Assembly: GCA_963839345.1 (NCBI GenBank)
Contig: CAWIUP010000003.1
Location: 448 to 64,447, forward strand
DNA: 64,000 nt
Reading direction: 5' to 3'
DNA from: an uncultured Actinomycetota bacterium
GTDB taxonomy: Bacteria > Actinomycetota > Actinomycetes > Mycobacteriales > Mycobacteriaceae
Below, piece after piece: positions 10,120-45,802 of the stretch (position 1 is the first letter of the stretch; each line of letters starts with the position of its first letter). The translations under genes and the position numbers were made by a program. The notes under the pieces are model-generated. The model saw nothing but the letters and a program-made list of their open reading frames with translations. It did no database searches and was not told where the DNA came from.

Positions 10120-10124
10120 GTCCG

Positions 10125-28136: not shown

Positions 28137-31068
28137 CGCCTCCCTAACGCGTGCGAATCTGTCAGGTACTCACCGGAGAGCGGGTCCAGGTTGTAGACCC
28201 CTGGGCCGGGCGCCGGTCGGCCGCCTACGACGAACGCGCTCGGCAGCGGTCGATGCGAGGTGCTGGTCGGGATGCGCTCGACAATTCGCACGACATGCGG
28301 TCGACGATCCGGCGGCAGCTGTTCCAGTGCCGCGGAAAGGTCCTGGGCGTCCAGTGATCGCTCGGACCGCAGCGTGACCGCGGTGACCGCTAGGTCGTCG
28401 CCGTCGGCTCCGGGGACGGCGTAGGTGACGCTCATGTCGATCGCGTCGAGAATGCCGAGCGCGTCTTCGACCGCGGACCCGCCGACCACGCCGTGGGCCG
28501 TCGTGACGAGCGAGTCGGCACTGCCTGCAAGCCAGAAGTCGCCGTCCTCATCGCGGTAGAACAGGTCTCCGGTCAGCAGCCACGCGTCTCCCGGAGCGAA
28601 CAGTCCGCGCTGTGGACGTGCCGCCGTCGACATTCCCGGCTCGACCCGGGAGAGCAACATCCCGATTTCCCTGGGCCGGCACTGCTCGGCGGAGCCGTCG
28701 GCGCGAAGAGCCAGCTGTCGGGTCTTTTCGTCAATGCGGGCGATGCGCAGCTCCGGACTGCCCGGAAGCGGGGTGCCCATGCAGCCGACCTTTGCGCCGG
28801 GCATGTTGACCAGGATCGCGTCGGTCTGCGCGGACGCGTAGTACTCCACCACTCGGGCCGGGGCGAAGCGCTCAATCACCCTGTGCCACAGTCCTACCGG
28901 CATGCCCGAGCCGATGAATGTGCGGATCGTGTGGTGGAGCTCACCGGGATGCGGTGGCGCCTCGACGAGGTCGCGGAGCTGCGTCCAGGTATACGAGACC
29001 ACGGTCACCCCGTAGCGGCGCGCTTCATTCCAGAACGTGTCGGGGTCCAGCCGGCTCGCCATCGAAAAGCGGGCGCCGCTGGCGACCGCGCCCCCAGCGA
29101 CATCAGCAGGCCGGACGGATGGTGGATCGGGTTGATACTGAAGACCGTGTCGCGCGGTCCGAGTTCAGCCGAGGCCGCGGTTCCGAACGCCGCCCGCGCC
29201 CAGCGGGCATTGGTGATGTTTCGCGCCCGTGTCGACGGCCCGTCCCCGGTGAACAAGACAAAAGCGGTTTCCCGCGCCAGGCCGGGATTCGGTCGATACC
29301 AGATCGGGAGGCTGACTGCAGCTGGATCGACGCGCTCCAGGTCGATCACCCCGTCGACGCCGAGGTCCCGTTGCCCTCCCCCACCGCCGAGCACGAACAC
29401 CTCGGCGTGAGTCTGCGCGCGGACGGAGTCGACGTGTTCCGGGTCGGTCACGATGCGTCCGGCGCCACCAAGTTTGATCTCCTCGGTGAGCGACCCGTCG
29501 GGCCGCAACAGCACGACCACCGCTCCGATCCGGTTGAGCGCGGCAACGGCGATGAGCATGCTGGGTCGGGTATCCATCAGCACGCCGACGGATTCACCCT
29601 GGCGCACGCCGACCGACAGCAGTCCCGCGACCACGGCGTCAATTCGCGCCTTCAGAGCTGCGTGAGTGTAGGCGCGATCCTCCCACAGGAACCCGACTGC
29701 GGCGGGGTGTCCTTCGGCGCGTTCGTCGAGGAGGCGGCCGAGCGACACCCGCGTCTGCGGGCGCACCAATTCCAGGCGCAGCAGCCGCGGCAGTGTAGTG
29801 GCGGCGCCAGCCGTGAGGGCCCGCGTCGCGTCGAGCGTCGACGTGCCCAGGCGCAGGCCGGCCTGCAACCCCTGGCCTACCGCTGCGATGAGCGGATTGC
29901 GCCGTTCGCTGCGGTCGGCGGCGACCTTCGCCGTACCCATCGGCTCGATGATCTCCGGCATGTCAGTGCCCTTGTCGAGATGCGATGCCCAGGCGGCCAC
30001 CGCCGGCCAGGTCCTCGCCGTCGCCACTGAACCCACCACGATGCCGAGGTGTCCGACCGGCAGCGAGACCTCGTGGATGTCGGCACGAGGAGCCGCGCGG
30101 CGGATCGCCCGAACCGCCTCGGGCTGCCCGATCTGGTCGTTCTCGCCGACAAAGCACAGGACGGGCCGGTCGATGTCGGCGAGGGCCAAGGGTCGCCCGT
30201 CGATGACCATGCCGCCAGCCAGCATCCGGTTCTGTGCGATGAACTGCCGCAGTGCGTCGGCGAGTGCGGGAGCCGGCCATGCGATCCAGCCTTCGGATTC
30301 GATAAAGCGCCGCTGGCGCTCGTGGGGCAGCAACGCTTCCCGATCGTGCAGTTGCCGCAGGAACTGCACTCGTGATCGCACATTCTTTACCGGATCGAGC
30401 AGCCGAAAGCCTTCGCGGGTTGCCCATCCGGGCAGGCCCGTGCGGTCCAGTAACGCGGCGACCGTGTCTGCGGCGAATTCCATCACCGGTTCGGGCAACG
30501 AGAAGATGCCCACCGACTTGGTGTCGACGGGGCTACCGAAGGAGATGACGCTCGCCAGTCCCGCACCGCGGCGGTAGGCGGCGACGGAGTAGGAGAACAC
30601 GCCTCCCTGGCTGTATCCGCCCAGGTGAACGTCTCTGCCGGTCAGGCCCCGGACCCGGTCGACGATCTCGCTGGTCGCGACGATGTGATCAGCGAGGGTC
30701 CGCTGCAGCCCACCTTCCTCATGTTCGGGTGCACCGAAGTCGACCACCCACGGGTCGACGCCGTGCTCATGCAGCACGCTCACCGCCGAAGAAGTAGAGG
30801 AGACGTCGTAGACGTCGGCGACGAACATCATCGGCGGGACGAGAACCACCGCCGGCCGCCCGGCGCTGTCGCTATCCGGGAAATACCGGCGCAGCCGGTA
30901 CATGGGCTCCTTGGCAATCACCTCGAACGGCGAGCCGGTCTCGCCCGTCTCGAACCCACCGTGCATGAGCAGCTGCGCCGCGTTCATTGCCACCGCACCG
31001 AGTTGATCGGTCCGTTTAGCCAATCCCATCCGTTCCATGAGTGCTGTTGCTCGATCCGAGATGTCCAC
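28133..31068 (-). pseudogene. Rv1683-like alpha/beta-hydrolase/AMP-binding fusion (copy 1), frameshifted in a G5 run at 29091-29095
   Basis: GYSQGG, LRQLHDREALLP and GHLGIVVG, followed by an AMP-binding domain. Adding one G restores SLGGAVASGARFSMASRL and joins ORFs 29005-31068 and 28133-29062. Confidence 0.85.
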
Positions 31069-31090: not shown

Positions 31091-31106
31091 CAGTCAGATC
31101 TGACTA
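31091..31106. promoter_or_regulatory. Operator palindrome CAGTCA-GATC-TGACTA (site 1 of 5)
   Basis: About 25 bp upstream of the 31068 start, with a TTGACC on the minus strand at 31138-31143. Confidence 0.75.
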
Positions 31107-31270
31107 GATTGCTCTAGTAAAGCAGGGATCACAGGGGCGGTCAATACCTCCGCGGCGGGGTAGGCGCTCGGATGCCGCGGCTTCTTCGGACGTTCGCGCA
31201 CCGCCCGTTGCCGGCACATCCGCACTCGGAGCCGGGCGTATCTGCACTGACAAAAGGGGCGATCCGATCG

Positions 31271-31320
31271 TTGACCCGGAGAGGTTCTGCCGCTACTTTA
31301 AAATCAGTCATTATTGACTA
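31271..31320 (+). promoter_or_regulatory. SigA-like promoter (TTGACC-N17-TACTTT) plus operator CAGTCA-TTAT-TGACTA (site 2)
   Basis: -35 at 31271-31276, -10 at 31294-31299, operator at 31305-31320. Confidence 0.75.
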
Positions 31321-31446
31321 GTTTATCTATATCGGCAACGCTGCAGTCTTGAAGGACGCGGCCGTCCGTGGACATCGTTGATCGAGTTGGCCTGGTGACT
31401 GGCGCCGGGTCGGGTAGTGCACGCGAATGAATGTTAGGAACGATGC

Positions 31447-32502
31447 GTGTTAGTGGATGGGACTGTCGGGGGGACGACGGAGGGTGGCGATATCGGAGCC
31501 ATCGTCAAGCAGCTGGCCAACGCTGACCGGATGGGATATGCCGGCGTCTGGTCCACCGAGGTGGCACGGGATCCGTTCCTGCCGGCGTTGTTGGCGGCGG
31601 AGCACACACCGCGCCTGACTGTCGGAACGGCCATCGCGGTAGCGTTCGCACGCAACCCGATGAGCATGGCGACGGTCGCCAACGACTTGCAGTCGCTCAG
31701 TTCGGGCAAATTCATGCTCGGGCTGGGTTCCCAGATCAAGGCGCACATCGAACGCCGGTTCAGCATGCCGTGGAGCCGACCCGCGGATCGAATGCGTGAG
31801 TTCGTCGCCGCGATGCACGCGATCTGGGACAGCTGGCACAATGACCAGCCGCTGGACTTTCGCGGCGACTTCTATCAGCACACGCTCATGCCGCCCGCCT
31901 TCCGCCCGAGCCCCAACGTTTTCGGAGCCCCACCGGTACTCATCGCTGCGGTCGGGCCACAGATGACTACGGTTGCTGCCGAAGTAGCAGACGGGCTGCT
32001 CGTCCATGGCTTCACGACTGAACGGTATTTGCGGGAAGTGACTGTTCCGCTGGTTAATGCAGTGTTGGAGCGGAAGCCAAATCCTTCTTGCGACTTTGTG
32101 CTGTCCTATCCCGGGTTTGTGGTGACGGGGTTGGACGAACGCTCGATGATGGCGGCCGCGGCTGCCGTACGCAATCAGATTGCGTTTTATGGCTCAACTC
32201 CGGCCTACTCCAGCGTGCTCGAACTGCACGGATGGGGCGATCTGCACACGGAACTGCACCGGCTGTCCAAAATCAATGCCTGGGACACGATGACCGGACT
32301 CATCGACGACACCATGCTGAACACTTTCGCCGTTGTCGGCGAGCCCGAGGACGTGGGCGCAGAGATTCGCCGGCGCTTCGGTGACATCATCGACCGCTTT
32401 TCCTTCTACGCGCCGTACCGACTCCACCCGCAGGCATGCGAGACGATGATCTCCGCGATCCGCGCCGGCCGGATCGGAACCGTTTGGCCGTCGGGACATT
32501 GA
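31447..32502 (+). CDS. F420-dependent LLM-class oxidoreductase (TIGR03617-like)
   Basis: EVARDPF, GTAIAVAFARNP, LGLGSQIKAHIERRFSM, ADGLLVHGF and IAFYGSTPAY. Confidence 0.92.
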   Translation: MLVDGTVGGTTEGGDIGAIVKQLANADRMGYAGVWSTEVARDPFLPALLAAEHTPRLTVGTAIAVAFARNPMSMATVANDLQSLSSGKFMLGLGSQIKAHIERRFSMPWSRPADRMREFVAAMHAIWDSWHNDQPLDFRGDFYQHTLMPPAFRPSPNVFGAPPVLIAAVGPQMTTVAAEVADGLLVHGFTTERYLREVTVPLVNAVLERKPNPSCDFVLSYPGFVVTGLDERSMMAAAAAVRNQIAFYGSTPAYSSVLELHGWGDLHTELHRLSKINAWDTMTGLIDDTMLNTFAVVGEPEDVGAEIRRRFGDIIDRFSFYAPYRLHPQACETMISAIRAGRIGTVWPSGH

Positions 32503-32739
32503 CCTGCGCGGCTGCCGGTCGAGGCCCGATGGCGCCAAGATCGACACGCAGAAATAGAGCCCAGCTGCAAAGTAGTCGTGGCTGACGGTTTCAGAAAGTA
32601 CGCTTCGGCGCCAGCCCTCGACGAGTACATCACTCCGGCCTGCGGATGCCGTGGCTTCTTGGGGCGTCCGCGTTGCAACGTTGCCGGCGAGTCCATTCGA
32701 AGCCGGGCGTATCCGCGCTGAACGAAGGTGATCCGATCG

Positions 32740-32789
32740 TTGACCTGGGGCAGTTTTGATGTTACCTTAAAACCAGTCACTCCTGACTA
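32740..32789 (+). promoter_or_regulatory. SigA-like promoter (TTGACC-N17-TACCTT) plus operator CAGTCA-CTCC-TGACTA (site 3)
   Basis: -35 at 32740-32745, -10 at 32763-32768, operator at 32774-32789. Flanks GATCCGATCGTTGACC and TTTATCTA are shared with site 2. Confidence 0.78.
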
Positions 32790-32835
32790 TTTTATCTAAA
32801 GCGACGTATCGTCGCGACGAAAGGATCGGCAAGCA

Positions 32836-33606
32836 GTGGACATCGTTGATCGAGTTGCAGTCGTGACCGGCGCCGGGTCAGGTTTGGGCCGGGCCACTGC
32901 CCTGGCCCTGGTGAAGGCCGGAGCCCGAGTGGCGGTCCTGGACCGCAATACCGAGGCGGCGCGATCGGTGGCCGAAGAGGCTGGCGCAACAGCTCTCCCG
33001 GTGACGGTGGATGTGGCCGATCGCGCCTCGGTCACCGCGGCGATCGCCGAAGTTTCCGATGTGTTTGGCCGGGTCGATATTTGCCTCAACGCCGCCGGAA
33101 TTCCCAACCCCGGCAAGGTGTTTGGTAAGAGCGGGCCGCTCGATATCGAGCAGTTTCAGCGCGTCATCGATGTGAATCTGGTGGGTGCCTTCGACGTCAT
33201 GCGGCAGTGCGCCGAGCTGATGACCCGAAACATGAACCCGGGCCTTGATGGTGAACGGGGGGTCATCATCAACGTCTCATCCGGCGCCGCGTTCGAGGGT
33301 CAGAAGGGCCAGGCGGCCTACAGCGCGAGCAAAGCTGGCCTGATCGGCTTGATGCTTCCTGCAGCTCGCGACTTGGCTCACTACGGCATTCGCGTGGTGA
33401 CTATCGCGCCCGGTCTGTTCGATACCGGCATCTTCGCCGAAGTTGATCCCAAGGTGGTTCAAGCCCTCGGCTCAGCCGCGCTCAACCCGTCGCGACTGGG
33501 TGAACCCAGTGAGTTCGCGTCACTCGTCATGCACATCATCGAGAACAGATACATCAACGCGACGACACTGTCGATCGACGCCGGTGCCCGGCTACCCAAT
33601 GTCTAG
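32836..33606 (+). CDS. SDR, type II 3-hydroxyacyl-CoA dehydrogenase (HSD10-like)
   Basis: TGAGSGLG, NAAGI, YSASK, VVTIAPGLFDT and RLGEPSEFA. Confidence 0.92.
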   Translation: MDIVDRVAVVTGAGSGLGRATALALVKAGARVAVLDRNTEAARSVAEEAGATALPVTVDVADRASVTAAIAEVSDVFGRVDICLNAAGIPNPGKVFGKSGPLDIEQFQRVIDVNLVGAFDVMRQCAELMTRNMNPGLDGERGVIINVSSGAAFEGQKGQAAYSASKAGLIGLMLPAARDLAHYGIRVVTIAPGLFDTGIFAEVDPKVVQALGSAALNPSRLGEPSEFASLVMHIIENRYINATTLSIDAGARLPNV

Positions 33607-33634
33607 CCGCGACCTCCACATTGAAGAGGAAATC

Positions 33635-35200
33635 ATGACCGAGCCACACAGCGGAATCTCCTACTCCGCGTTGATCGTTGAAGCACTGACCCGGCACCGC
33701 GATCGCACGGCGTTCATCCACGGCGATTCCCGGGTGTCCTACGCCGAAGCGGCCGATACGACGAGTCGAATCCGCAGGGTGCTGGAAGGCCTGCTGGAAT
33801 ATAAAGGCAGCACGAAGGGCAGCTGCGTCGGTGCGCTCAGCGTCAACTCCCCCGATGTCTGGATGGCCCAGGCCGCGATCGGCCTGACCGGAGCGATGTA
33901 CACCGGGCTGCACCCACTGGGATCCGTCGACGACCATGTGCAGCTGTGCGAGGACGCCGAGGTCGACATTCTCATTGTCCATCCCAAGTTCGCGGAAGTC
34001 GGCGCCCAGATCGTCGCCCGCGCCACCAACGTCAAGCATCTGCTCACGCTGGGGCCCGCCGACGTCGGCGAGGACCTGCTGGCGTTGTGCGCCCAGGTCG
34101 CACCGGAACCACTCACCCGCGGTGATGCCGACGAAGAGGACATCGCGTGGCTGCAGTACACCGGGGGCACCACGGGGCGCCCCAAGGCCGCCATGATCTC
34201 CCATCGCGCGATGGTTCAGCAGGTGTTTTCGCTGACCGCCTCCTGGCGACTGCCGCTTGACCCGCGGACGCTCATCGCGACTCCAATCACCCACGCCGGT
34301 GTGCTGCCGATCCTGCCCACGCTGCTGCGGGGCGGCACCGTCGTTCTGCAGGCGGGCTTCGACACCGACCAGTGGCTTGCAGCGGTGGAAGCCCATCGGA
34401 TCAACTATGTGTTCACCATCCCCACCGTGCTGTACGCGTTGCTGGATCACGGTGGTCTCGAGCGGTTCGACTTGAGCTCGTTGGAGACGGTCGTCTACGG
34501 TGCGTCGCCGATGTCGCCGTCGCGCATCGACGAGGCACAACAGGCGTTCGGCCCGACCCTGTTGCAGGGGTACGGCCAGACGGAGTGCGTCGGCATGGCC
34601 ACCAGTTTGTTGCCCTCCGAACATGATCCGGCGAACTGGACATCCTGCGGTCGCGCGGTCGCCGGCGCGCTCGTCGAGGTCCTCGACGAGGACGGGCAAC
34701 CAGTGCCTAACGGAACGGTCGGCGAACTCTGCGTGCGGTCACGTGGGGTGATGTCCGGGTACTGGAAGCGGCCGGCGGAGACCGCCGAGGTCCTGCGCAA
34801 CGGCTGGCTTCGAACCGGGGACATGGCCTTCCGCAGCGATGCTGGCTTCTTCCACATCGTGGACCGCAAGAAGGACATGGTGATCTCCGGCGGCTTCAAC
34901 GTCTATCCCCGCGAGATCGAAGACGTTCTCGCCGACGATCCATCGGTGTCGATGGTCGCGGTGATCGGCGTACCCGATCCGAAGTGGGGTGAGGCGGTCA
35001 AGGCCTTTGTCGTGCCCCGGCCCGGCGCCACACCGGACATCGCAGCTTTGATCGCGAGCGTCAAACAGCGAAAAGGTCCGCACTATGCCCCGAAGTCCAT
35101 CGAGGTGGTCGACCAATTACCCCTCACAAAGGTCGGAAAGATCGACAAGAAGGTCCTTCGCGCCACTTATTGGGCGGGACTCGACAGGGCGGTCAACTGA
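33635..35200 (+). CDS. Acyl-CoA synthetase (AMP-binding)
   Basis: YTGGTTGRPK, QGYGQTE, GWLRTGD, DRKKDMVISGGFNVYPREIE and GKIDKK. Start ATG 33635 with a GAGG RBS. Confidence 0.94.
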   Translation: MTEPHSGISYSALIVEALTRHRDRTAFIHGDSRVSYAEAADTTSRIRRVLEGLLEYKGSTKGSCVGALSVNSPDVWMAQAAIGLTGAMYTGLHPLGSVDDHVQLCEDAEVDILIVHPKFAEVGAQIVARATNVKHLLTLGPADVGEDLLALCAQVAPEPLTRGDADEEDIAWLQYTGGTTGRPKAAMISHRAMVQQVFSLTASWRLPLDPRTLIATPITHAGVLPILPTLLRGGTVVLQAGFDTDQWLAAVEAHRINYVFTIPTVLYALLDHGGLERFDLSSLETVVYGASPMSPSRIDEAQQAFGPTLLQGYGQTECVGMATSLLPSEHDPANWTSCGRAVAGALVEVLDEDGQPVPNGTVGELCVRSRGVMSGYWKRPAETAEVLRNGWLRTGDMAFRSDAGFFHIVDRKKDMVISGGFNVYPREIEDVLADDPSVSMVAVIGVPDPKWGEAVKAFVVPRPGATPDIAALIASVKQRKGPHYAPKSIEVVDQLPLTKVGKIDKKVLRATYWAGLDRAVN

Positions 35201-35201
35201 C

Positions 35202-36005
35202 ATGACCAACACTGCCCTATCCCCCACCCTCGCGAAACACCTTGACGGAGCCGCCGTTTGGCTACGGCTGCAACGTCCGGCGGCGATGAACGCCATCAGC
35301 ACCGACCTGCTGGACGAACTCAACGTCGCGCTGGACGAGATCGAATCTGACGAATCCGTCCGGGTGGTCGTGTTGACCGGTACCGGCCGCGCATTTTGCG
35401 CGGGCGCCGACCTGAAGGCGCTGGGCAATGCGGCCGGCGAGGTCGATCCGGGCAAGGTCGTGCAATTCGTCGCCTACGCCGGTCGGACGATCGAACGCCT
35501 TGCCGCACTTGCACAACCGGTGATCGCGGGAGTCAACGGATTGGCCCTGGCCGGCGGGCTTGAATTGCTGCTTGCGAGCGACATCGTGGTGGCTTCCAGC
35601 GCAGCGCGCATCGGTGACGCGCACGCGAACTACGGACTGATTCCCGGCGCCGGCGGCTCGGCTCGGCTGGCGCGGGCGGTGGGCACGCAGATGGCGAAAT
35701 ACCTGGCCTTCACCGGCGCTCACTTTCCGCCGTCGTCGCCGGTGCTCGCGGGACTGGTCAGCGAGATCGTCGACCCCGAAGATCTCGACACCCGACTGGC
35801 CGAACTCGCCACCACCCTGGCCGAAAAGAGCCCGCTGGGGCTGCGTCGAATGAAGCGCCTGATCAACGACGCACCCGATCAGCCTCTTCCAGACGCACTC
35901 GCCGCCGAGCAGCACGCCCTTGCCGAGCAGTGCCGCTCAGAAGACTTCGCTGAGGGAATCGCGGCGTTCGCCGCCCGGCGCACGCCCACTTACCAAGGCC
36001 GATAG
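35202..36005 (+). CDS. Enoyl-CoA hydratase/isomerase family protein
   Basis: FCAGADLK, GLALAGGLEL, GLIPGAGGS and DFAEGIAAF. Confidence 0.93.
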   Translation: MTNTALSPTLAKHLDGAAVWLRLQRPAAMNAISTDLLDELNVALDEIESDESVRVVVLTGTGRAFCAGADLKALGNAAGEVDPGKVVQFVAYAGRTIERLAALAQPVIAGVNGLALAGGLELLLASDIVVASSAARIGDAHANYGLIPGAGGSARLARAVGTQMAKYLAFTGAHFPPSSPVLAGLVSEIVDPEDLDTRLAELATTLAEKSPLGLRRMKRLINDAPDQPLPDALAAEQHALAEQCRSEDFAEGIAAFAARRTPTYQGR

Positions 36006-36016
36006 GAGAACCAACC

Positions 36017-37180
36017 GTGGACACCGCTGTGCCCTTCACCCTCAGCCCAGATCACCTCGCCTTCCGGCAATCGGTTCGCACGCTGGCGCGATCGCGCTAC
36101 GCCGATTCGATGCTTGCCCGGTCGCAGAGCGACAAGTTCCCGACCGCCGAATTCGGTGAACTGGGCTCCGCGGGGCTGCTCGGACTGCTGATCAGCGAAT
36201 CGGCGGGCGGCCAGGGCGGCGACGTGCTGGCCGTCGGCATCGCTGTCGAGGAACTTGCCTACGCCGACCCCGCGATCGCCTACCTGTCGTTCGCGGCGAA
36301 TGTCAGCAATGCGCTACTCGCCACACACGGCAGCGACGAAGTTCGCGCGCGATGGGTCACCCGCGGCATCGCCGGCGAAGCCGTCATCTGCCTCGCGCTG
36401 ACCGAACCGGGGGCCGGGTCCGACGCGTCGAATCTCTCCACCAGGGCCACCCGTGTCGACGGCGGCTGGCGAATCTACGGTGAGAAGACCTCGATCACCC
36501 AGGCGGTGCATGCCGATGTCGCGATCGTCATCGCACAGACCAAACCGGGGTCGGGCGGCAAGGGCATCGGAATGTTCCTCGTCGACATGGACAACGATGC
36601 GGTGACGACCCAGGCCATTCGTGATCCCGGCTTCAAACCACTGGGGCGTGGCTCCATCTTTCTCGACGGTGTTTTCGTGCCGGACAGCCACGTACTCGGT
36701 GAGATCGGACGCGGATTCTCGATGGTGATGCATGAATTCGATTTGAGCCGAACACTGATCGCGCTGATGAACATCGGCACGGCGCAACGCGCGCTCGACA
36801 TGTCGATCGAATACTCCAAACAGCGTCAGACATTCGGGCGCCCGCTGGCAGCCAACCAGGGCGTGTCTTTTGTGATCGCCGAACACAGCACCTACGTTTC
36901 GGCGGTACGGGCGCTGGGCTATCACGCGTTGGGCCTTCGGATGGCAGGGCAGCCGCACACGGCTGAAGCCGCGATGCTCAAGTGGTGGGGACCGCTGGTC
37001 GCGCACAACGCGATCCGCGACTGCATCGTGTTGCACGGCCAGGTCGGCTGGTCCGATGAGATGCCGCTGCAGGCAATGCTGCGAGACGTCTCGGGGTGCA
37101 TGATCGGCGACGGCACACCACAAATTCAGAAACTCGTGATAGCGCGCGAGCTCATCGGCAAGGAAGTGCTGGCAGGATGA
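36017..37180 (+). CDS. Acyl-CoA dehydrogenase resembling cyclohexanecarboxyl-CoA dehydrogenase (AliB/BadJ type)
   Basis: LTEPGAGSDA, GEKTSI, GRGSIF, FDLSRTLIAL, AAMLKWWGP and LRDVSGCMIGDGTPQIQK. Confidence 0.9.
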   Translation: MDTAVPFTLSPDHLAFRQSVRTLARSRYADSMLARSQSDKFPTAEFGELGSAGLLGLLISESAGGQGGDVLAVGIAVEELAYADPAIAYLSFAANVSNALLATHGSDEVRARWVTRGIAGEAVICLALTEPGAGSDASNLSTRATRVDGGWRIYGEKTSITQAVHADVAIVIAQTKPGSGGKGIGMFLVDMDNDAVTTQAIRDPGFKPLGRGSIFLDGVFVPDSHVLGEIGRGFSMVMHEFDLSRTLIALMNIGTAQRALDMSIEYSKQRQTFGRPLAANQGVSFVIAEHSTYVSAVRALGYHALGLRMAGQPHTAEAAMLKWWGPLVAHNAIRDCIVLHGQVGWSDEMPLQAMLRDVSGCMIGDGTPQIQKLVIARELIGKEVLAG

Positions 37181-38394
37181 CCAATGACGAAGCAACGCTC
37201 CGCACCGTCGTGGTGGCCGGGGTCGGAATGACCGCGTTCGGCAAATTCCTCGACCGCAGCATTAAATCGCTTGTCGCCGAATCGGTTCAGGCCGCCATCA
37301 AGGATTCGGGAATGGGCGAATCGGACAAGGGCATCGAAACGATCTACTACGCGAACACGGCGTCCGGGATTCTGCAGGGCCAGCACTCGGTGCGCGGACA
37401 GCACGCCATGCGTGAGGCGGGACTGAACGGCATTCCGCTGATCAACATCGAAAACGCCTGCGCCTCAGGATCGACGGCACTCAATCAGGCGTGGCTCGCG
37501 GTCGCGTCGGGCTATGTCGATGTTGCGCTGGCGGTGGGCGCCGAGAAGCTCTACCACCCCGACAAGCAGCTGACCTTCGCCGCCATGGGCAGCGCGCTGG
37601 ACCAGGATCGGCTCGCAGAGATCTTCGCCGAAATCGGAGCCACCGGTGGCGATCAATCGGTCTTCATGGATGTCTACGCGAAAGCGGCCACCGACTACAT
37701 GGACCGCACCGGAGCCACCCAGGAAGACTTCGCTCGCGTCGCGGTCAAGAACCACGACCACGGTGCGCTGAATCCCAAGGCGCAGTACCGGACCCGCTTC
37801 ACCCTCGAACAGGTGCTGGCGGCGCGCAAGATCTCCGGCCCACTGACCCTGCCGATGTGTTCGCCCATCGGCGACGGCTCTGCTGCGGTGATCTTGACAA
37901 CGCCGGACATCGCGGCGCATTGGGGCGCTGAGCCGATCACGGTGCTCGCCACCATGACCGGCGCGTCGAAACCCGGCGTCGGCGGGGAGCTTGTCCCAGG
38001 TGTGGCGAAGCGTGCGTTCGACTGGGCCGGCGTCAACCCGGCCGACGTGGACGTGCTGGAATGCCACGACGCCACGTCGCCGGCCGAGTTGATCGTGCTC
38101 GAAGAACTCGGGCTGGCCAAACCTGGCGGAGCCGTGGACATGATTCGCAAGGGCGACACCAGCATTGGGGGCAGTCTGCCGGTCAACACCAGCGGTGGCT
38201 TGGAAAGCAAAGGACACCCGATCGGAGCCAGCGGTCTCGCGCAGATCGTCGAGCTCACCGAGCAACTCCGCGGCCGTTGCGGCGAGCGCCAGGTCGGCGG
38301 CGCACGGATCGCCGTAGCGGAAAACGCAGGCGGCTACATGGGACCCGATGCGGCAGTGGCCGCGGTAACCATCCTCGGCGCAACGTCCAGATGA
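37177..38394 (+). CDS. SCP-x/lipid-transfer-type thiolase
   Basis: GVGMTAFGK, ENACASG, CSPIGDGSAA, ECHDAT and GHPIGASG. Confidence 0.92.
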   Translation: MTNDEATLRTVVVAGVGMTAFGKFLDRSIKSLVAESVQAAIKDSGMGESDKGIETIYYANTASGILQGQHSVRGQHAMREAGLNGIPLINIENACASGSTALNQAWLAVASGYVDVALAVGAEKLYHPDKQLTFAAMGSALDQDRLAEIFAEIGATGGDQSVFMDVYAKAATDYMDRTGATQEDFARVAVKNHDHGALNPKAQYRTRFTLEQVLAARKISGPLTLPMCSPIGDGSAAVILTTPDIAAHWGAEPITVLATMTGASKPGVGGELVPGVAKRAFDWAGVNPADVDVLECHDATSPAELIVLEELGLAKPGGAVDMIRKGDTSIGGSLPVNTSGGLESKGHPIGASGLAQIVELTEQLRGRCGERQVGGARIAVAENAGGYMGPDAAVAAVTILGATSR

Positions 38395-39332
38395 GCGGAC
38401 ACCAGGGAAGCGTCGCCCTGCGCCTCGTCAACCCGGTGGTCCGGGGGGTGTGCCAATCGGCGTTTCGTCTGTACCACGACGACCTCGACGGGATGCGGAC
38501 GTTCCTCGACCGTGCCGGTGTGGCATCAGACCTTCTCGCCCGGCCCGCACCGGGCTGCCGGATCGTCGACGGAGAATTGGGCGGCCTGACCACCCGCGAA
38601 TTCCACCCCGCTCGCGTACAGCACGGGCGCACCTTGCTCTACCTGCACGGTGGTGGATTCCTGATGTATGCGCGCAGCGCCTACACCGGATTCCTTTCGC
38701 GGCTGGCCAATGACCTGCAGACCCGTGTCGTGGTTCCCGCTTACCGGTTGGCTCCCGAGCACCCGTTTCCGGCGGCTATCGACGATTGTCTGCACGCCTA
38801 TGAGGCATTACTCGACGCTGGGCAGGACCCGGGTCAGTTGATGATCGCGGGCGAGTCGGCCGGCGCCAACGCTGCCCTGGTCACGTTGCAGCGGGCCCGC
38901 GACGCCAACCGCCCGATACCTGCGGGCGCGATCATGCTCAGCGGTGGCTTCGATTTCTCCTGGTCCAGCCCGTCGATCAGCATCAACGCCCGCCACGACA
39001 CCGCACTGGGCGCGCGTGGGCTGGCATTCCTACGGCGCTGGTACCGACCGGAGGTCGATGCGACAGACCCCCTGATTTCCCCGGTTTTCGGTGACTTCGC
39101 GGGCCTGCCACCGCTGCTGTTCCAGACCGGGCACACCGAGGTGTTACGTGACGATTCGGTGCGGGCGACCGAGCGTGCGCGCGCGGCCGGAGTACCGGTA
39201 TGGCTCGAGGTCTTCCCACATGTCCCGCACGCCTGGCATCAGCTCATGACATGGCTTCCCGAGACGCGCACCGCCCTGCGGCAAATCGGGCAGTTCGCCG
39301 ACGCCATCCACCAACCGAGGAGCATCTCGTGA
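38391..39332 (+). CDS. HSL-family esterase/lipase
   Basis: HGGGF, YRLAPEHPFPAA, GESAG, EVLRDD and HAW. Confidence 0.92.
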   Translation: MSGHQGSVALRLVNPVVRGVCQSAFRLYHDDLDGMRTFLDRAGVASDLLARPAPGCRIVDGELGGLTTREFHPARVQHGRTLLYLHGGGFLMYARSAYTGFLSRLANDLQTRVVVPAYRLAPEHPFPAAIDDCLHAYEALLDAGQDPGQLMIAGESAGANAALVTLQRARDANRPIPAGAIMLSGGFDFSWSSPSISINARHDTALGARGLAFLRRWYRPEVDATDPLISPVFGDFAGLPPLLFQTGHTEVLRDDSVRATERARAAGVPVWLEVFPHVPHAWHQLMTWLPETRTALRQIGQFADAIHQPRSIS

Positions 39333-40900
39333 CTATCGATCAACTGTCGCCCGCGGGTACCGAGGTTGTCGACGTGCGCAACCCCGCGACGGGTGAGCTC
39401 ATCGAAAGTGTCGCCGTGCAATCCGCCGAGGCGGTCGCCGCGGTCGTGGACGAACTGCGCGCCCATCAGTTGTCCTGGGAGGCGCTGGGGCCCACCGCGC
39501 GCGCAGTGTGGCTGCGAAGTCTGCGGAATTGGTTGTTGGACAACGAATCCCGGCTCGTCGATATAATTTCCGCCGAGACTGGTAAGCCTCGAGTCGAGGC
39601 CGCGTTCGAAGTCATGGTGACCTGCGACGCGATCAACTACTACGCCGACCGGGCCCGGAAGTACCTCGCCGAAAAGAAGTTCAGACCGCACGGTCCGCTC
39701 ACCTCCACCAAAAAGCTCACCAGCGTCTACCGGCCGTACCCGGTCGTTGGAGTGATCACGCCCTGGAACTTCCCGTTACTCATTCCCGGTGTGGACGCCG
39801 TCGCGGCGCTGCTGGCCGGCGCGTCCGTCCTCGTCAAGCCCTCAGAGGTCACTCCGCTGTCCGCGCAGGAACTCGCCCGTGGCTGGGAACAGATCGGTGC
39901 GCCACCGGTTCTCGCCTGTGTCACCGGTCTGGGCGCAACAGGCGCGGCGGTGGTGGACTCCGTTGACATGGTGCAGTTCACCGGTTCCACCAAGACCGGA
40001 CGGGCCATCGCCGCGCGGGCCGGCGAACGCTTGATTCCCTGCGGCGTCGAACTGGGCGGCAAGGACCCCGCCATCGTCCTGGCCGACGCCAATCTTTCGC
40101 GCGCCGCCAACGGCATCGCGTGGGCAGCACTGTTCAACTCGGGTCAGGCCTGCATCTCGGTGGAGCGCGTGTACGTCGAGGCACCGGTCTATGACCGGTT
40201 CGTCGCGCTGCTCACCGAGCGGGTACGGTCGATCAGGCAAGGCGTCGACAACGGTTCGTACTCAGCGGATGTCGGCGCTATGGTCACCGAGCAGCAGGTT
40301 GATATCGTGCGGAGCCACGTCCAGGATGCCGTCGCCCACGGGGCCACGATCGCGACCGGCGGAAAGACGACCGGGGGCTTCTTCGAGCCCACGATTCTTC
40401 TCGACGTCGATCATTCGATGGCCTGTATGCGGGACGAGACGTTCGGCCCGACGATCCCGGTGATGAAGGTGGCCGGCGAAGAAGAGGCGATCCGGCTGGC
40501 AAACGACTCCCAGTACGGACTGTCGGCAACCGTGTGGACCAAGGACATTGGTCGCGCAAAGGCCATCGCGCGACGGCTCGAGGTCGGCGCCGTGAACATC
40601 AACGACGCATTCTCGAACCTGTTCTGCTTCCCCTTGCCACATGGCGGCTGGAAAAGTTCCGGCCTCGGGTCCAGGCTGGGCGGCCCGCAGGGCATCCGCA
40701 AGTACTGCCGTCAGCAGGCCATAACGACACCTCGCGTGCCGAGGATGGAGAACCAATTGCTTTGGTACCCCTACTCGCATCTGCGAGGCCGCATCGTTAG
40801 CGCATTGCTGCGCCTGTTCGTGGCCCGCGACGTCAGGCGACGACTATGGCGCGCCGGCCGAAGCCACGGTCACGCGTCGCTTGTCTCCGGGCCAAAGTAG
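39329..40900 (+). CDS. Aldehyde dehydrogenase
   Basis: PWNFP, KPSEVTP, FTGST, ELGGKDP, NSGQACIS and ETFGP. Start GTG 39329. Confidence 0.94.
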   Translation: MTIDQLSPAGTEVVDVRNPATGELIESVAVQSAEAVAAVVDELRAHQLSWEALGPTARAVWLRSLRNWLLDNESRLVDIISAETGKPRVEAAFEVMVTCDAINYYADRARKYLAEKKFRPHGPLTSTKKLTSVYRPYPVVGVITPWNFPLLIPGVDAVAALLAGASVLVKPSEVTPLSAQELARGWEQIGAPPVLACVTGLGATGAAVVDSVDMVQFTGSTKTGRAIAARAGERLIPCGVELGGKDPAIVLADANLSRAANGIAWAALFNSGQACISVERVYVEAPVYDRFVALLTERVRSIRQGVDNGSYSADVGAMVTEQQVDIVRSHVQDAVAHGATIATGGKTTGGFFEPTILLDVDHSMACMRDETFGPTIPVMKVAGEEEAIRLANDSQYGLSATVWTKDIGRAKAIARRLEVGAVNINDAFSNLFCFPLPHGGWKSSGLGSRLGGPQGIRKYCRQQAITTPRVPRMENQLLWYPYSHLRGRIVSALLRLFVARDVRRRLWRAGRSHGHASLVSGPK

Positions 40901-41496
40901 AGATCGGGAATCCGCCGCCACGTTTCGAGCAGGCGCTTCTCCTCCGCGCTGCTATGGAATGGCTTGCTGGCCGCAGCTCCCAGCATCGAATTGATCACCA
41001 CTACGCAGAATTCGGGGAATCGTTTGTGGTCGGCGCGCCGCTCGCCGAGCACCGCCTTGCACAGGTCGACGTTCGCGCGCGACAACTCGCGTTCCAGGGG
41101 CTTCAGGTATTCGCGCATGTCGGGATCGTGTCGGGCAGCGATGAGCAACTCGAGTGAAGCTCCGCCCAAGGGGCCGGAGACGACCTGCCACAGCAGTGAA
41201 GCCCAGTCCTCGCCGTCGAGCGTCTCGGTGGCACGCAGCCGCGCCTCGCCGACCTTGGTCGCATACAGATGGCGTGCCGCCGCGCTGATGAGCTCGCCCC
41301 GGGAGCCGAAGTAGTGCAACAGGACCCCGCGAGAGACGCCGGCTTGCTTTTGGACCTCGAGCGTCGTCGTGGCCGCATAGCCACGCTCGATCAGGATCGA
41401 AACCGTTGCGTCAAGCAGTTTTCGTTCCGCGGCCTGACGACGTTCGCGCTGACTGATCCGGACAGGCTGGGCAGCGGTCGAACTCCTTGCAGCCAA
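40870..41496 (-). CDS. TetR/AcrR family transcriptional regulator
   Basis: LLDAT...GYAATTTLEVQKQAGVSRGVLLHYFGS HTH. TTG start with a GGAG RBS, divergent from the CoA transferase. Confidence 0.94.
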   Translation of the reverse strand: MAARSSTAAQPVRISQRERRQAAERKLLDATVSILIERGYAATTTLEVQKQAGVSRGVLLHYFGSRGELISAAARHLYATKVGEARLRATETLDGEDWASLLWQVVSGPLGGASLELLIAARHDPDMREYLKPLERELSRANVDLCKAVLGERRADHKRFPEFCVVVINSMLGAAASKPFHSSAEEKRLLETWRRIPDLYFGPETSDA

Positions 41497-41522
41497 GGTG
41501 AACTCCTAAGTTGTGGCGCAGA

Positions 41523-41574
41523 TTGACACAGTACCGAAAATACCGCTACCTTCAATACTAGTCAAGATTGACTA
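41523..41574 (+). promoter_or_regulatory. SigA-like promoter (TTGACA-N18-TACCTT) plus operator TAGTCA-AGAT-TGACTA (site 4) in the tetR/CoA-transferase gap
   Basis: -35 at 41523-41528, -10 at 41547-41552, operator with perfect half-sites at 41559-41574. Confidence 0.8.
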
Positions 41575-41577
41575 CTA

Positions 41578-42699
41578 TTGTCGTGCGGAGTGGAGACGGA
41601 CGTGTCGAGTGGCCCTTTGTCCGGTGTGAAGGTTCTCGAAATAGCCGGCATCGGGCCGGGACCCTTCTGCGGAATGCTGCTCGCAGATCTGGGCGCCGAC
41701 GTGGTGCGTGTCGACCGACCGGGGGGCGGGGGCATGCAACTAGTGCCATGGGCCGACGACCTGCTCAACCGCGGGAAACGCTCGATTGCCGTCGATCTCG
41801 CGAAACCCGACGGCGCCGAGACGGTGCTGTCACTGGTCGAGCACGCCAGCATATTGTTCGAGGGATTCCGTCCCGGGGTTGCCGAACGGCTGGGCATCGG
41901 ACCCGAGCCCTGCCTGCTGCGCCGCCCCCAATTGGTCTACGGCCGCATGACCGGATGGGGTCAGGACGGCCCGATCGCACATACCGCCGGACACGACATC
42001 ACCTACATCGCACCCACCGGAGCGCTGCACGCGATCGGGCAGGCCGGTGGCCCCCCGCAGATCCCGCTCAACCTCGTCGGCGACTTCGCCGGCGGAAGCA
42101 TGTACCTGCTGGTCGGCATGCTGGCCGCCCTCGACGAGGCCCGACGAAGCGGCCGTGGCCAGGTGGTCGACGCGGCGATCGTCGATGGCACAGCGCATCT
42201 GATGACCATGATCTACAGCTGCTACGCGGCGGGAGTCTGGTCCGATCAACGCGGCACCAACCTCGGCGACGGCGGTTCGCCGTTTTACGGCGTCTATCAG
42301 ACCTCCGATGCGAAGTACATGGCCGTCGGGGCGCTCGAACCGCAGTTCTACGCCGAGTTCCTGCGCCTGCTCGAAATCCCGTCGGATCCCGCCGCGCAGT
42401 TCGACCGCGACGCTTGGCCGCAGCTGGGGGCCAAGATCAGCGCCGCCTTCGCCGAACGCCCTCAACACGAGTGGGCAAAGATATTCAGTGACAGCGACGC
42501 TTGCGTGGCACCCGTACTCGGCATGTCCGTTGCGCCGGACCATCCGCAATTGGCCGCCCGCAATACCTTTTTCGTCGGCAATGGCATAACCCAGCCATCC
42601 CCGGCACCCCGGTTCTCGCGCACTCCGGCAGTCGTCGACGGCCCGCCATGCGTGCCTGGCCAGCACACCGACGAAGTGCTCGCTGACTGGCTGAACTGA
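41578..42699 (+). CDS. CaiB/BaiF CoA-transferase family protein, alpha-methylacyl-CoA racemase (Mcr)-like
   Basis: LEIAGIGPGPF, VRVDRP, EGFRPGV, GHDITY and NLVGDFAGGS. The start may be a downstream GTG. Confidence 0.92.
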   Translation: MSCGVETDVSSGPLSGVKVLEIAGIGPGPFCGMLLADLGADVVRVDRPGGGGMQLVPWADDLLNRGKRSIAVDLAKPDGAETVLSLVEHASILFEGFRPGVAERLGIGPEPCLLRRPQLVYGRMTGWGQDGPIAHTAGHDITYIAPTGALHAIGQAGGPPQIPLNLVGDFAGGSMYLLVGMLAALDEARRSGRGQVVDAAIVDGTAHLMTMIYSCYAAGVWSDQRGTNLGDGGSPFYGVYQTSDAKYMAVGALEPQFYAEFLRLLEIPSDPAAQFDRDAWPQLGAKISAAFAERPQHEWAKIFSDSDACVAPVLGMSVAPDHPQLAARNTFFVGNGITQPSPAPRFSRTPAVVDGPPCVPGQHTDEVLADWLN

Positions 42700-42734
42700 A
42701 CATTGACCGGCAGCGGTCCTGCGAATGGCCAAAC

Positions 42735-42750
42735 CAGTCATAGATGACTA
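42735..42750. promoter_or_regulatory. Orphan operator CAGTCA-TAGA-TGACTA (site 5) between two convergent stops
   Basis: Same palindrome and AAAC/TTTT flanks as sites 1-4, with a TTGACC at 42703. Confidence 0.65.
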
Positions 42751-45707: not shown

Positions 45708-45802
45708 AACGTCATGAATACGACACTACGCGCAGCGAGGGCACCGCGGTGGCAAGCCGATCCCGGGACAAGTGGCCGAGTGCCGTTGGCGATACTAGAC
45801 CG

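What the first reader, a model, noticed from the sequence alone, without database searches (positions are those of the whole stretch)
31091..42750. Five copies of YAGTCA-N4-TGACTA define a probable regulon for the local TetR
Seen: the palindrome occurs at 31091, 31305, 32774, 41559 and 42735, always with a 4-nt variable spacer. At three sites it lies 5-6 nt downstream of a SigA-type TTGACM-N17/18-TACYTT promoter, over the likely TSS. One site is in the divergent gap of the tetR gene (40870-41496). Established: TetR repressors typically bind palindromes in their own divergent intergenic region. Inference: this TetR co-regulates the Rv1683-like/ChoD-like operon, the F420 LLM enzyme, the eight-gene SDR-to-ALDH operon and the Mcr-like gene. 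This gives a complete operator/regulon map readable from sequence alone.
Basis: partly seen in the sequence, partly recalled or inferred. Interest (0 to 1): 0.65.

Follow-up and report, generated by a model that had tools for sequence, protein, structure and literature searches.

The report
TetR operator set of a lipid-catabolism island
Five copies of a palindrome are very probably the binding sites through which one local TetR-type repressor switches a cluster of fat-breakdown genes (and its own gene) on and off in an uncultured soil Mycobacterium; this is a well-supported but ordinary kind of bacterial gene switch.

Summary
YAGTCA-N4-TGACTA occurs at exactly the five stated positions. Shuffles give 0 expected matches. 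The 5.65-Mb genome has only two other core matches, and neither belongs to this system.

Comparative genomics supports the interpretation strongly. I examined 33 orthologous loci, nearly all from soil or bog Mycobacterium MAGs. The arms AGTCA/TGACT are invariant at the tetR/mcr gap (33/33), the SDR-operon promoter (21/21) and the Rv1683-like promoter (11/11), while the 4-nt spacer varies freely. Genomes without this TetR lack the site cluster. Some 35-45%-identical TetR relatives in other genera carry the same motif in front of their own genes.

The full operator is about 26 bp: AAWAC-YAGTCA-N4-TGACTR-GTWTT. Sites 1-4 lie just downstream of the -10 element of TTGACM-N17/18 promoters. Site 4 also supplies the -35 element of the tetR promoter.

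Corrections and additions:
- The SDR-to-ALDH operon has seven genes, not eight.
- Site 2 arose by duplication of the SDR promoter/operator/5' end together with insertion of the LLM gene. Relatives have a P450 or nothing in that slot.
- Site 5 lies in a convergent 3'-3' gap with no target gene. It is under weaker constraint, and its role is unexplained.

The TetR and its operator are uncharacterised, but the system is a new member of a known kind. No binding or expression data exist.

The parts
31091..31106 (.). Site 1, operator CAGTCA-GATC-TGACTA. On the minus strand it lies 9 nt downstream of the -10 of the Rv1683-like gene promoter.
   Evidence: Arms are perfect at the equivalent position in 11/11 orthologous loci.
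31116..31144 (-). Promoter P1: TTGACC (31144-31139), N17, TTTACT (31121-31116). It drives the Rv1683-like/GMC operon.
   Evidence: Read. TTGACC-N17-TTAACT/TTAGAT is conserved in relatives. Not flagged by the generic scan.
26493..31068 (-). Target operon 1. It comprises an Rv1683-like lipase/acyl-CoA synthetase and a GMC (cholesterol-oxidase-like) oxidoreductase at 26493-28136. The Rv1683-like gene is split into 29005-31068 and 28133-29062 by a 1-nt loss in a G-run near 29095.
   Evidence: The GMC start overlaps the upstream stop (ATGA).
31169..31415 (+). Copy A of the duplicated module. It holds the upstream region, promoter P2 (TTGACC 31271-76, N17, TACTTT 31294-99), site 2, and the RBS plus first 16 codons of the SDR gene.
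   Evidence: About 78% identical to copy B at 32643-32883.
31305..31320 (.). Site 2, operator CAGTCA-TTAT-TGACTA, 5 nt downstream of the -10 of P2.
31368..31430 (+). Relic 20-codon ORF (VDIVDRVGLVTGAGSG...), a truncated copy of the SDR N-terminus in the LLM leader.
   Evidence: Read and aligned.
31447..32502 (+). Target gene 2: F420-dependent LLM oxidoreductase (TIGR03617). It is an accessory gene inserted between sites 1 and 3.
   Evidence: It is absent from this position in most relatives, and a P450 sits there in L057, L058 and L061.
32573..32588 (.). Degenerate palindrome TAGTCG-TGGC-TGACGG (2 mismatches). It is possibly a decayed duplicate of site 1.
   Evidence: It lies 70 nt before copy B, as site 1 lies 78 nt before copy A. 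Low confidence.
32740..32768 (+). Promoter P3: TTGACC, N17, TACCTT.
   Evidence: Conserved in 21 relatives.
32774..32789 (.). Site 3, operator CAGTCA-CTCC-TGACTA, 5 nt downstream of the -10 of P3.
   Evidence: Arms are perfect in 21/21 relatives, which show more than 15 different spacers.
32836..40900 (+). Target operon 3, seven genes: SDR, acyl-CoA synthetase, enoyl-CoA hydratase, acyl-CoA dehydrogenase, SCPx-type thiolase, Abhydrolase_3 esterase and aldehyde dehydrogenase.
   Evidence: Gene order is conserved in relatives.
40870..41496 (-). tetR: a 208-aa TetR/AcrR-family regulator with a TTG start preceded by AGGAG.
41537..41565 (-). tetR promoter: TTGACT (-35, which is the arm of site 4), N17, TATTTT.
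   Evidence: Conserved as TATTTT/TGTTTT/TAGTTT in relatives.
41523..41552 (+). mcr promoter: TTGACA, N18, TACCTT.
41559..41574 (.). Site 4, operator TAGTCA-AGAT-TGACTA. It covers the mcr transcription start region and the -35 of the tetR promoter. In relatives it is part of a 28-bp palindrome, CAATAC-TAGTCA-N4-TGACTA-GTATTG.
41602..42699 (+). Target gene 4: alpha-methylacyl-CoA racemase homologue (CoA-transferase family III).
   Evidence: E = 4e-114 to M. tuberculosis Mcr, PDB 1X74.
42735..42750 (.). Site 5, operator CAGTCA-TAGA-TGACTA. It lies in the convergent gap 36 nt after the mcr stop and 33 nt before the stop of the second Rv1683-like gene. It has no target gene.
   Evidence: At the equivalent position in relatives the arms are perfect in 18/26 and carry 1 mismatch in 7/26.

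Best explanation
The five palindromes are operators of the TetR-family repressor encoded at 40870-41496. The operator consensus is about 26 bp: AAWAC-YAGTCA-N4-TGACTR-GTWTT.

Without ligand, the dimeric repressor sits immediately downstream of the -10 element, over the transcription start, at four TTGACM-N17/18 promoters and blocks RNA polymerase. These promoters drive:
- the Rv1683-like/GMC operon (site 1, minus strand);
- the F420-dependent LLM gene (site 2);
- the seven-gene SDR-to-ALDH beta-oxidation operon (site 3);
- the alpha-methylacyl-CoA racemase gene (site 4).

Site 4 also overlaps the -35 hexamer of the divergent tetR promoter, so the repressor would limit its own synthesis.

A pathway metabolite is inferred to release the repressor and switch on the whole island. 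The most likely candidate is a (2-methyl-branched) acyl-CoA made by the operon's own ligase.

The regulon is confined to this island. Site 2 exists because the SDR promoter/operator/5' end was duplicated when the LLM gene was inserted. Site 5 is a real but weaker-constrained binding site in a convergent gap, and its role is not established.

Shown here: sites, geometry, conservation, co-occurrence with the TetR gene.
Inferred: binding by this protein, repression, ligand.
For: Statistics:
- 0 matches are expected by chance in the window.
- The genome has 7 core matches, 5 of them here.
- The five sites are the only high-scoring matrix hits in the genome.

Footprinting, anchored on gene positions rather than on the motif:
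- Arms are invariant upstream of tetR in 33/33 orthologous loci.
- Arms are invariant upstream of SDR in 21/21 and upstream of the Rv1683-like gene in 11/11, while spacers differ in most loci.
- The palindrome is the only sequence shared between the four site classes.

Co-occurrence:
- 12 genomes with the TetR have 2-10 core matches, clustered at the locus.
- 24 relatives without it have 0-5 matches, and none has a TetR ortholog (best identity 39%).

Independent contexts:
- 7 of 37 distant homologues (34-45% identity) in other genera carry the motif with at most 1 mismatch, 36-121 nt upstream of their own start, often next to acyl-CoA dehydrogenase genes. About 0.1 such cases are expected by chance (my estimate).
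- Motif-positive homologues share SRGxLLH in the recognition helix: 5 of 7, plus the query. Among motif-negative homologues it is 1 of 30.

Geometry:
- The operator lies 5-9 nt after the -10 element at sites 1-4.
- The arm of site 4 is the -35 of TTGACT-N17-TATTTT, the tetR promoter.

Protein and pathway:
- The protein has a PF00440 HTH and an all-helical TFR fold, pLDDT 86.
Against: - There is no experimental evidence of binding, repression or induction.
- The -10 hexamers (TACYTT, TTTACT) fall below the generic sigma-70 scan threshold.
- Sites 1-3 descend from one duplicated module, so their number overstates independence within this genome.
- Site 5 has no promoter with a conserved -10 and no downstream gene. 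Simple promoter occlusion does not explain it.
- The ligand cannot be inferred from sequence or fold, because only generic TFR matches were found.
- It is unresolved whether one or two dimers occupy the 26-28-bp element.
Confidence: 0.85

Rival explanations
1. The palindrome is a genuine regulatory site, but it is bound by a different protein encoded elsewhere, such as another TetR paralogue or a global regulator. On this view the local TetR recognises something else.
For: No binding data exist. A similar core, cgaTAGTCAGATCTGACTAtcg at C7:871868, is conserved between an FAD oxidase gene and a LuxR-type regulator gene, including in genomes that lack this TetR. At least one other factor may therefore read an AGTCA-N4-TGACT core.
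Against: - The A/T-flanked version occurs only in this island.
- It is found in every genome carrying the TetR ortholog, always about 79 bp before its start.
- It is absent as a cluster from 24 relatives lacking the gene.
- It reappears in front of distant homologues of this TetR in unrelated contexts.
- Its presence correlates with a recognition-helix signature.
Confidence: 0.08
2. The repeated palindrome is mainly a passenger of a duplicated promoter segment. On this view it is repeat history rather than a selected operator set, and its recurrence says little about regulation.
For: Sites 2 and 3 lie in a 250-bp direct duplication of about 78% identity. Site 1 shares the RBS and start-codon region in inverted orientation. 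Extra copies accompany gene insertions in relatives.
Against: - Within the duplicated modules the arms are identical, while the spacer differs at 3 of 4 positions and the flanks are about 22% diverged.
- Across 21-33 lineages the arms never change at sites 1, 3 and 4.
- Sites 4 and 5 are not part of the duplication.
- A possible promoter-less copy at 32573 has decayed.
Confidence: 0.03
3. At site 5 the palindrome acts as a structure rather than as a protein-binding site. It would be an RNA hairpin plus T-run serving as a bidirectional terminator for the convergent mcr and Rv1683-like genes.
For: The site lies between two stop codons and is followed by TTTTT. The region folds somewhat better than shuffles, z = -2.3.
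Against: - The terminator scan finds nothing there.
- The operator arms form a weak 5-bp A/U-rich stem, and the predicted fold does not use the palindrome as its own hairpin.
- A structural role would tolerate compensatory changes, but the arms keep the exact operator sequence in 18/26 relatives, whatever the convergent neighbour.
Confidence: 0.1

Closest known systems
KstR and KstR2 (M. tuberculosis cholesterol-catabolism TetR repressors)
   Same: A TetR-family repressor controls several lipid or steroid beta-oxidation transcription units through multiple copies of a short palindrome placed at promoters, including its own. Acyl-CoA-type inducers are involved (own knowledge). KstR-DNA complexes are among the fold hits.
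   Different: - The operator is different. The KstR motif is TnnAACnnGTTnnA from memory; here it is AGTCA-N4-TGACT.
- NCBIfam KstR scores 26.5 bits against a cut-off of 280, and only over the HTH.
- The regulon here is 5 sites in a single island, not dozens genome-wide.
- There is no ortholog in 24 sampled species of the genus.
Acyl-CoA-responsive FadR of Bacillus subtilis (YsiA) and Thermus thermophilus (TetR family)
   Same: A small one-domain TFR represses beta-oxidation operons and is released by long-chain acyl-CoA (own knowledge). Structures 3WHC and 3ANP appear among the fold matches.
   Different: TM-scores are only about 0.5, identity is 14-20%, and NCBIfam FadR scores 18.7 against a cut-off of 200. 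The operator sequence is different. Here the ligand is only inferred.
Divergently transcribed TetR/target pairs (the general rule for TFRs with a gap under 200 bp)
   Same: tetR and mcr are divergent. There are 105 bp between the start codons and one shared operator covering both promoters.
   Different: The regulon extends beyond the divergent neighbour to three further promoters up to 10 kb away, and to one 3'-end site.
QacR/IR1-type long operators bound by two TFR dimers
   Same: The conserved element is 26-28 bp, longer than the roughly 15 bp needed by one dimer. Site 4 in relatives is a 28-bp perfect palindrome.
   Different: There is no evidence here for stoichiometry. The A/T flanks could equally serve shape readout by a single dimer.

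Membership tests
TetR/AcrR family regulator (TFR) | N-terminal TetR_N helix-turn-helix domain (PF00440) | tested here: met
   PF00440, E = 3.3e-13, residues 27-72.
TetR/AcrR family regulator (TFR) | All-alpha two-domain fold of about 9-10 helices and about 200 aa | tested here: met
   The AF2 model has pLDDT 85.8 and 10 helices. The top 50 Foldseek PDB hits listed are TFRs, with TM up to 0.64.
TetR/AcrR family regulator (TFR) | Palindromic operator in its own promoter region | tested here: met
   Site 4 lies 62 bp upstream of the tetR start and overlaps the -35 of TTGACT-N17-TATTTT. This is conserved in 33/33 orthologous loci.
TetR/AcrR family regulator (TFR) | Specific DNA binding relieved by a small-molecule ligand | not testable with these tools
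   Needs EMSA, footprinting and ligand titration.
KstR / KstR2 / FasR / FadR / BetI equivalogs | Full-length match above the NCBIfam equivalog cut-off | tested here: not met
   The best hit is BetI at 47.6 bits against a cut-off of 201. KstR scores 26.5 against 280, FasR 30.3 against 330, and FadR 18.7 against 200. All matches cover the HTH only.
Mce3R-type lipid regulator | Tandem double TetR domain of about 400 aa | tested here: not met
   The protein is 208 aa with a single domain. The PDB Mce3R match covers the HTH only.
Alpha-methylacyl-CoA racemase (target gene 41602-42699) | Full-length similarity to structurally characterised Mcr/Far | tested here: met
   E = 4e-114 over residues 3-363 to M. 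tuberculosis Mcr (1X74), and 1e-109 to Far (2G04). Catalytic residues were not checked.

The most novel reading that the evidence does not exclude
The promoter-operator-leader unit may behave as a reusable capture cassette. Each time an accessory gene block is inserted into the island, a copy of the cassette is duplicated in front of it. Examples are the LLM gene here, a P450 in other lineages, a 10-kb block in one lineage, and a split of the operon in another. Newly acquired genes would thus be enrolled in the TetR regulon at once.

In addition, the conserved operator at the 3' end of mcr (site 5) may be a ligand-controlled roadblock or insulator in a convergent gene gap. That would be an unusual job for a TetR operator.
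Probability: 0.25. Interest if true: 0.5.

Novelty: new member of a known kind. Interest (0 to 1): 0.33.

Why it matters
The analysis gives a testable operator consensus and a complete regulon map for an uncharacterised TetR clade. The clade is found in uncultured soil and peat mycobacteria and, more distantly, in other Mycobacteriales, where it is often next to acyl-CoA dehydrogenase genes.

The regulated island combines a lipase/acyl-CoA synthetase, a GMC oxidase, a racemase for 2-methyl-branched acyl-CoAs, a full beta-oxidation set and a variable oxygenase slot (LLM or P450). This suggests catabolism of methyl-branched lipids or esters in soil.

The tight operator-promoter pair could also serve as a compact regulated expression module for mycobacteria.

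As a mechanism it is standard TetR biology. It does not open a long-standing question.

Tried and rejected
- **Literature.** Full-text searches for the half-sites with TetR and Mycobacterium, and for racemase with TetR and operator, returned only primers and unrelated papers. No characterised counterpart was found.
- **PDB by sequence and by fold.** Only generic TFR matches came back, so there is no clue to the ligand.
- **A hidden gene downstream of site 5.** ORFs there look like antisense artefacts. The 25-45 nt stretch conserved after the site in several relatives reads as the 3' end and stop of a convergent gene (partly my reading). Only L029 has a same-strand gene (esterase) directly after the site.
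- **Site 5 as a promoter.** TTGACC after the mcr stop is conserved, but the hexamer at the -10 position is not.
- **Site 5 as an intrinsic terminator.** Not supported.
- **C7:871868 and C9:30476 as extra regulon members.** The C7 site has G/C flanks and is conserved in genomes lacking the TetR. The C9 site has one imperfect outer base and no support. Both were rejected.
- **Mycolicibacterium hodleri S5.20 as a cultured model.** It keeps the TetR (80% identity) and one operator, but mcr and ALDH are only fragments.
- **A subfamily-wide operator.** Only partly true. Just 7 of 37 distant homologues carry it.


Full report
**Observation.**
The pattern YAGTCA-N4-TGACTA occurs exactly at 31091, 31305, 32774, 41559 and 42735, against 0.00 expected in 100 shuffles. 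Allowing one mismatch in the 10-base core AGTCA-N4-TGACT adds no further site in the window. The whole genome is 5.65 Mb, 65% GC and 10 contigs, and the window is C3:448-64447. In it the core occurs seven times, five of them in this 11.7-kb stretch. From base composition I estimate about 1.8 chance matches per genome.

**Gene content.**

| Coordinates | Strand | Gene | Evidence |
|---|---|---|---|
| 26493-28136 | - | GMC, cholesterol-oxidase-like | |
| 28133-31068 | - | Rv1683-like lipase/acyl-CoA synthetase, split in two ORFs | |
| 31447-32502 | + | F420-dependent LLM, TIGR03617 | |
| 32836-40900 | + | Seven-gene operon: SDR, acyl-CoA synthetase, enoyl-CoA hydratase, acyl-CoA dehydrogenase, SCPx-type thiolase, Abhydrolase_3 esterase, aldehyde dehydrogenase | |
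| 40870-41496 | - | tetR, 208 aa, PF00440 | |
| 41602-42699 | + | Alpha-methylacyl-CoA racemase homologue | E = 4e-114 to M. tuberculosis Mcr 1X74 |
| 42783-45707 | - | Second, intact Rv1683-like gene | |
| 45749-46696 | + | Esterase | |

These calls rest.
- The operon has seven genes, not eight.
- The split of the first Rv1683-like gene is a one-base loss in a G-run near 29095. It could be an assembly error.

**Promoter geometry.**
Sites 2, 3 and 4 lie 5, 5 and 6 nt after TTGACC-N17-TACTTT, TTGACC-N17-TACCTT and TTGACA-N18-TACCTT.
- On the minus strand, site 1 lies 9 nt after TTGACC-N17-TTTACT and 22 nt before the GTG of the Rv1683-like gene, behind the RBS GAAAGGA. All four of sites 1-4 therefore sit over the expected transcription start.
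- The generic sigma-70 scan does not report these promoters, because TACYTT matches TATAAT at only 3 of 6 positions. They do fit the mycobacterial TANNNT pattern (own knowledge) and are conserved in relatives.
- The scan does report TTGACT-N17-TATTTT on the minus strand at 41565-41537. Its -35 hexamer is the arm of site 4, and it faces tetR, whose TTG start follows AGGAG. One operator thus covers both the start of the mcr promoter and the -35 of the tetR promoter.

**Related loci.**
The TetR has no ortholog in 24 sampled species of the same genus; the best match is 39% identical. A scan of genome contigs found 33 orthologous loci with 79-98% TetR identity. Nearly all are soil, peat or bog Mycobacterium MAGs, plus Mycolicibacterium hodleri S5.20. 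Gene order is conserved as: site 5, mcr, site 4, tetR, ALDH through SDR, site 3, site 1, Rv1683-like, GMC.

Footprinting was anchored on gene positions rather than on the motif:
- The arms are unchanged upstream of tetR in all 33 loci. One locus has a 5-nt spacer.
- They are unchanged upstream of SDR in 21/21 and upstream of the Rv1683-like gene in 11/11.
- The spacer takes many different values.
- The palindrome is the only sequence common to the four site classes.

A matrix from 85 sites extends the consensus to AAWAC-YAGTCA-N4-TGACTR-GTWTT. With it, the window's genome contains only the five sites, scoring 37-42; the next best position scores 13. In relatives, site 4 is a 28-bp perfect palindrome.

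**Link to the TetR.**
- Twelve genomes carrying the ortholog have 5-10 core matches, concentrated at the locus. M. hodleri has 2.
- Twenty-four relatives without the ortholog have 0-5 matches.
- Among 37 distant homologues (32-47% identity) from other genera and families of the order, seven carry the motif with at most one mismatch, 36-121 nt upstream of their own start (L003, L004, L005, L008, L062, L074, L086). Several of these are next to acyl-CoA dehydrogenase genes.
- The motif-positive proteins mostly share SRGxLLH in the recognition helix, which is rare in the motif-negative ones.

Together this makes the local TetR the binding protein with high probability. No experiment has tested it.

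**Sites outside the island.**
C7:871868 has the perfect core, but with G/C flanks (cgaTAGTCAGATCTGACTAtcg). It lies between an FAD-linked oxidase gene and a LuxR-type ATPase regulator gene. The same site is conserved in five TetR-bearing relatives and also in two genomes that lack the TetR. It therefore belongs to another system. C9:30476 has no support. The regulon is confined to the island.

**History of the sites.**
- Sites 2 and 3 lie in a 250-bp direct duplication (31169-31415 and 32643-32883, about 78% identity). It includes the promoter, the operator, the RBS and the first 16 codons of the SDR gene.
- The copy in front of the LLM gene retains a relic 20-codon ORF at 31368-31430.
- The arms are identical between the two copies, while the spacer differs at three of four positions.
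- Site 1, read on the minus strand, shares the RBS and the GTGGACATC start with the SDR gene.
- Most relatives have no gene between sites 3 and 1, which lie 180-240 bp apart.
- Three relatives have a cytochrome P450 flanked by duplicated operator modules in the slot where the window has the LLM. One has a 10-kb insert. One has the operon split by an insertion, with a new operator in front of the acyl-CoA dehydrogenase gene.
- The promoter-operator unit is thus repeatedly copied when accessory genes enter the island.
- A 2-mismatch palindrome at 32573 occupies the place where a duplicated site 1 would lie, and may be its decayed remnant. Confidence in this is low.

**Site 5.**
This site lies 36 nt after the mcr stop and 33 nt before the stop of the convergent Rv1683-like gene.
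- Equivalent sites follow mcr in nearly all relatives, whatever the neighbouring gene. The arms are perfect in 18 of 26, have one mismatch in 7 and two mismatches in 1. Constraint is real but weaker than at sites 1, 3 and 4.
- The TTGACC after the mcr stop is often conserved, but no -10 element is.
- No credible downstream gene exists, except an esterase in one relative.
- No terminator is predicted.
- The role of the site is unexplained. It could be an auxiliary site, a roadblock in the convergent gap, or a slowly decaying relic.

**Comparison with known systems.**
The protein is a standard one-domain TFR by domain and by predicted fold. It falls far below every NCBIfam equivalog cut-off, including KstR, FasR, FadR and BetI. 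It has no close solved relative. Literature searches found no description of this operator or regulator.

Functionally it resembles KstR/KstR2 and the acyl-CoA-responsive FadR proteins: a TFR controlling beta-oxidation units through several promoter-proximal palindromes. This comparison rests on my own knowledge. An acyl-CoA inducer, possibly 2-methyl-branched given the racemase, is an inference from that analogy and from the gene content.

**Verdict.**
The system is a new, uncharacterised member of a very familiar kind. That agrees at domain level; its AliB/BadJ assignment was not tested here.

Noticed in passing
window 29060-29100 (minus strand): The first Rv1683-like gene is split into two overlapping ORFs (29005-31068 and 28133-29062) by loss of one base in a run of G. 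The paralogue at 42783-45707 and the orthologs in relatives are continuous. This could be a homopolymer assembly error or a real pseudogene.
   Followed up: partly
genome contig C7:871868-871881 (outside the window); L044, L045, L047-L049, L090, L091: A 22-bp perfect palindrome, cgaTAGTCAGATCTGACTAtcg, lies in the divergent gap between an FAD-linked (BBE-type) oxidase gene and a large LuxR/ATPase-type regulator gene. It is conserved in at least 7 other genomes of the genus, including two that lack the TetR. It is probably the operator of a different regulator.
   Followed up: partly
L057:742-2716, L058:10426-12439, L061:1018-3059: In three relatives a 426-aa cytochrome P450 sits between duplicated operator modules, exactly where the window has the F420-dependent LLM gene. 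This looks like a variable oxygenase slot under the same control.
   Followed up: partly
L059:8285-18148 and L060:14656-18297: Larger insertions lie inside the island in two relatives. They carry a kinase-like/aminoglycoside-phosphotransferase-fold gene, a DUF-type gene, a WS/DGAT-like acyltransferase, a GPAT-like acyltransferase and a lipase. Each is bordered by extra operator copies, and in L060 the operon is split, with a new operator before the acyl-CoA dehydrogenase gene.
   Followed up: no
L038 (Mycolicibacterium hodleri S5.20) 9367-11132: The only cultured carrier keeps the TetR (80% identity) and one operator, but mcr and the ALDH gene survive only as fragments. The locus is a decayed remnant.
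   Followed up: partly
L040:9900-10000: One ortholog locus has the site-4 palindrome with a 5-nt spacer (TAGTCAACAATTGACTA) and a rearranged neighbourhood, with LLM next to tetR. This is either a sequencing indel or an inactivated operator.
   Followed up: no
window 32573-32588: The degenerate palindrome TAGTCG-TGGC-TGACGG, with A-rich and T-rich flanks, lies 70 nt upstream of the duplicated module. It is possibly a decayed copy of site 1 created by the same duplication.
   Followed up: partly
window 42703-42722: A short GC hairpin (GACCG-GCAG-CGGTC) lies directly after the mcr stop codon and is conserved in many relatives. The apparent TTGACC '-35' of site 5 is part of it.
   Followed up: no
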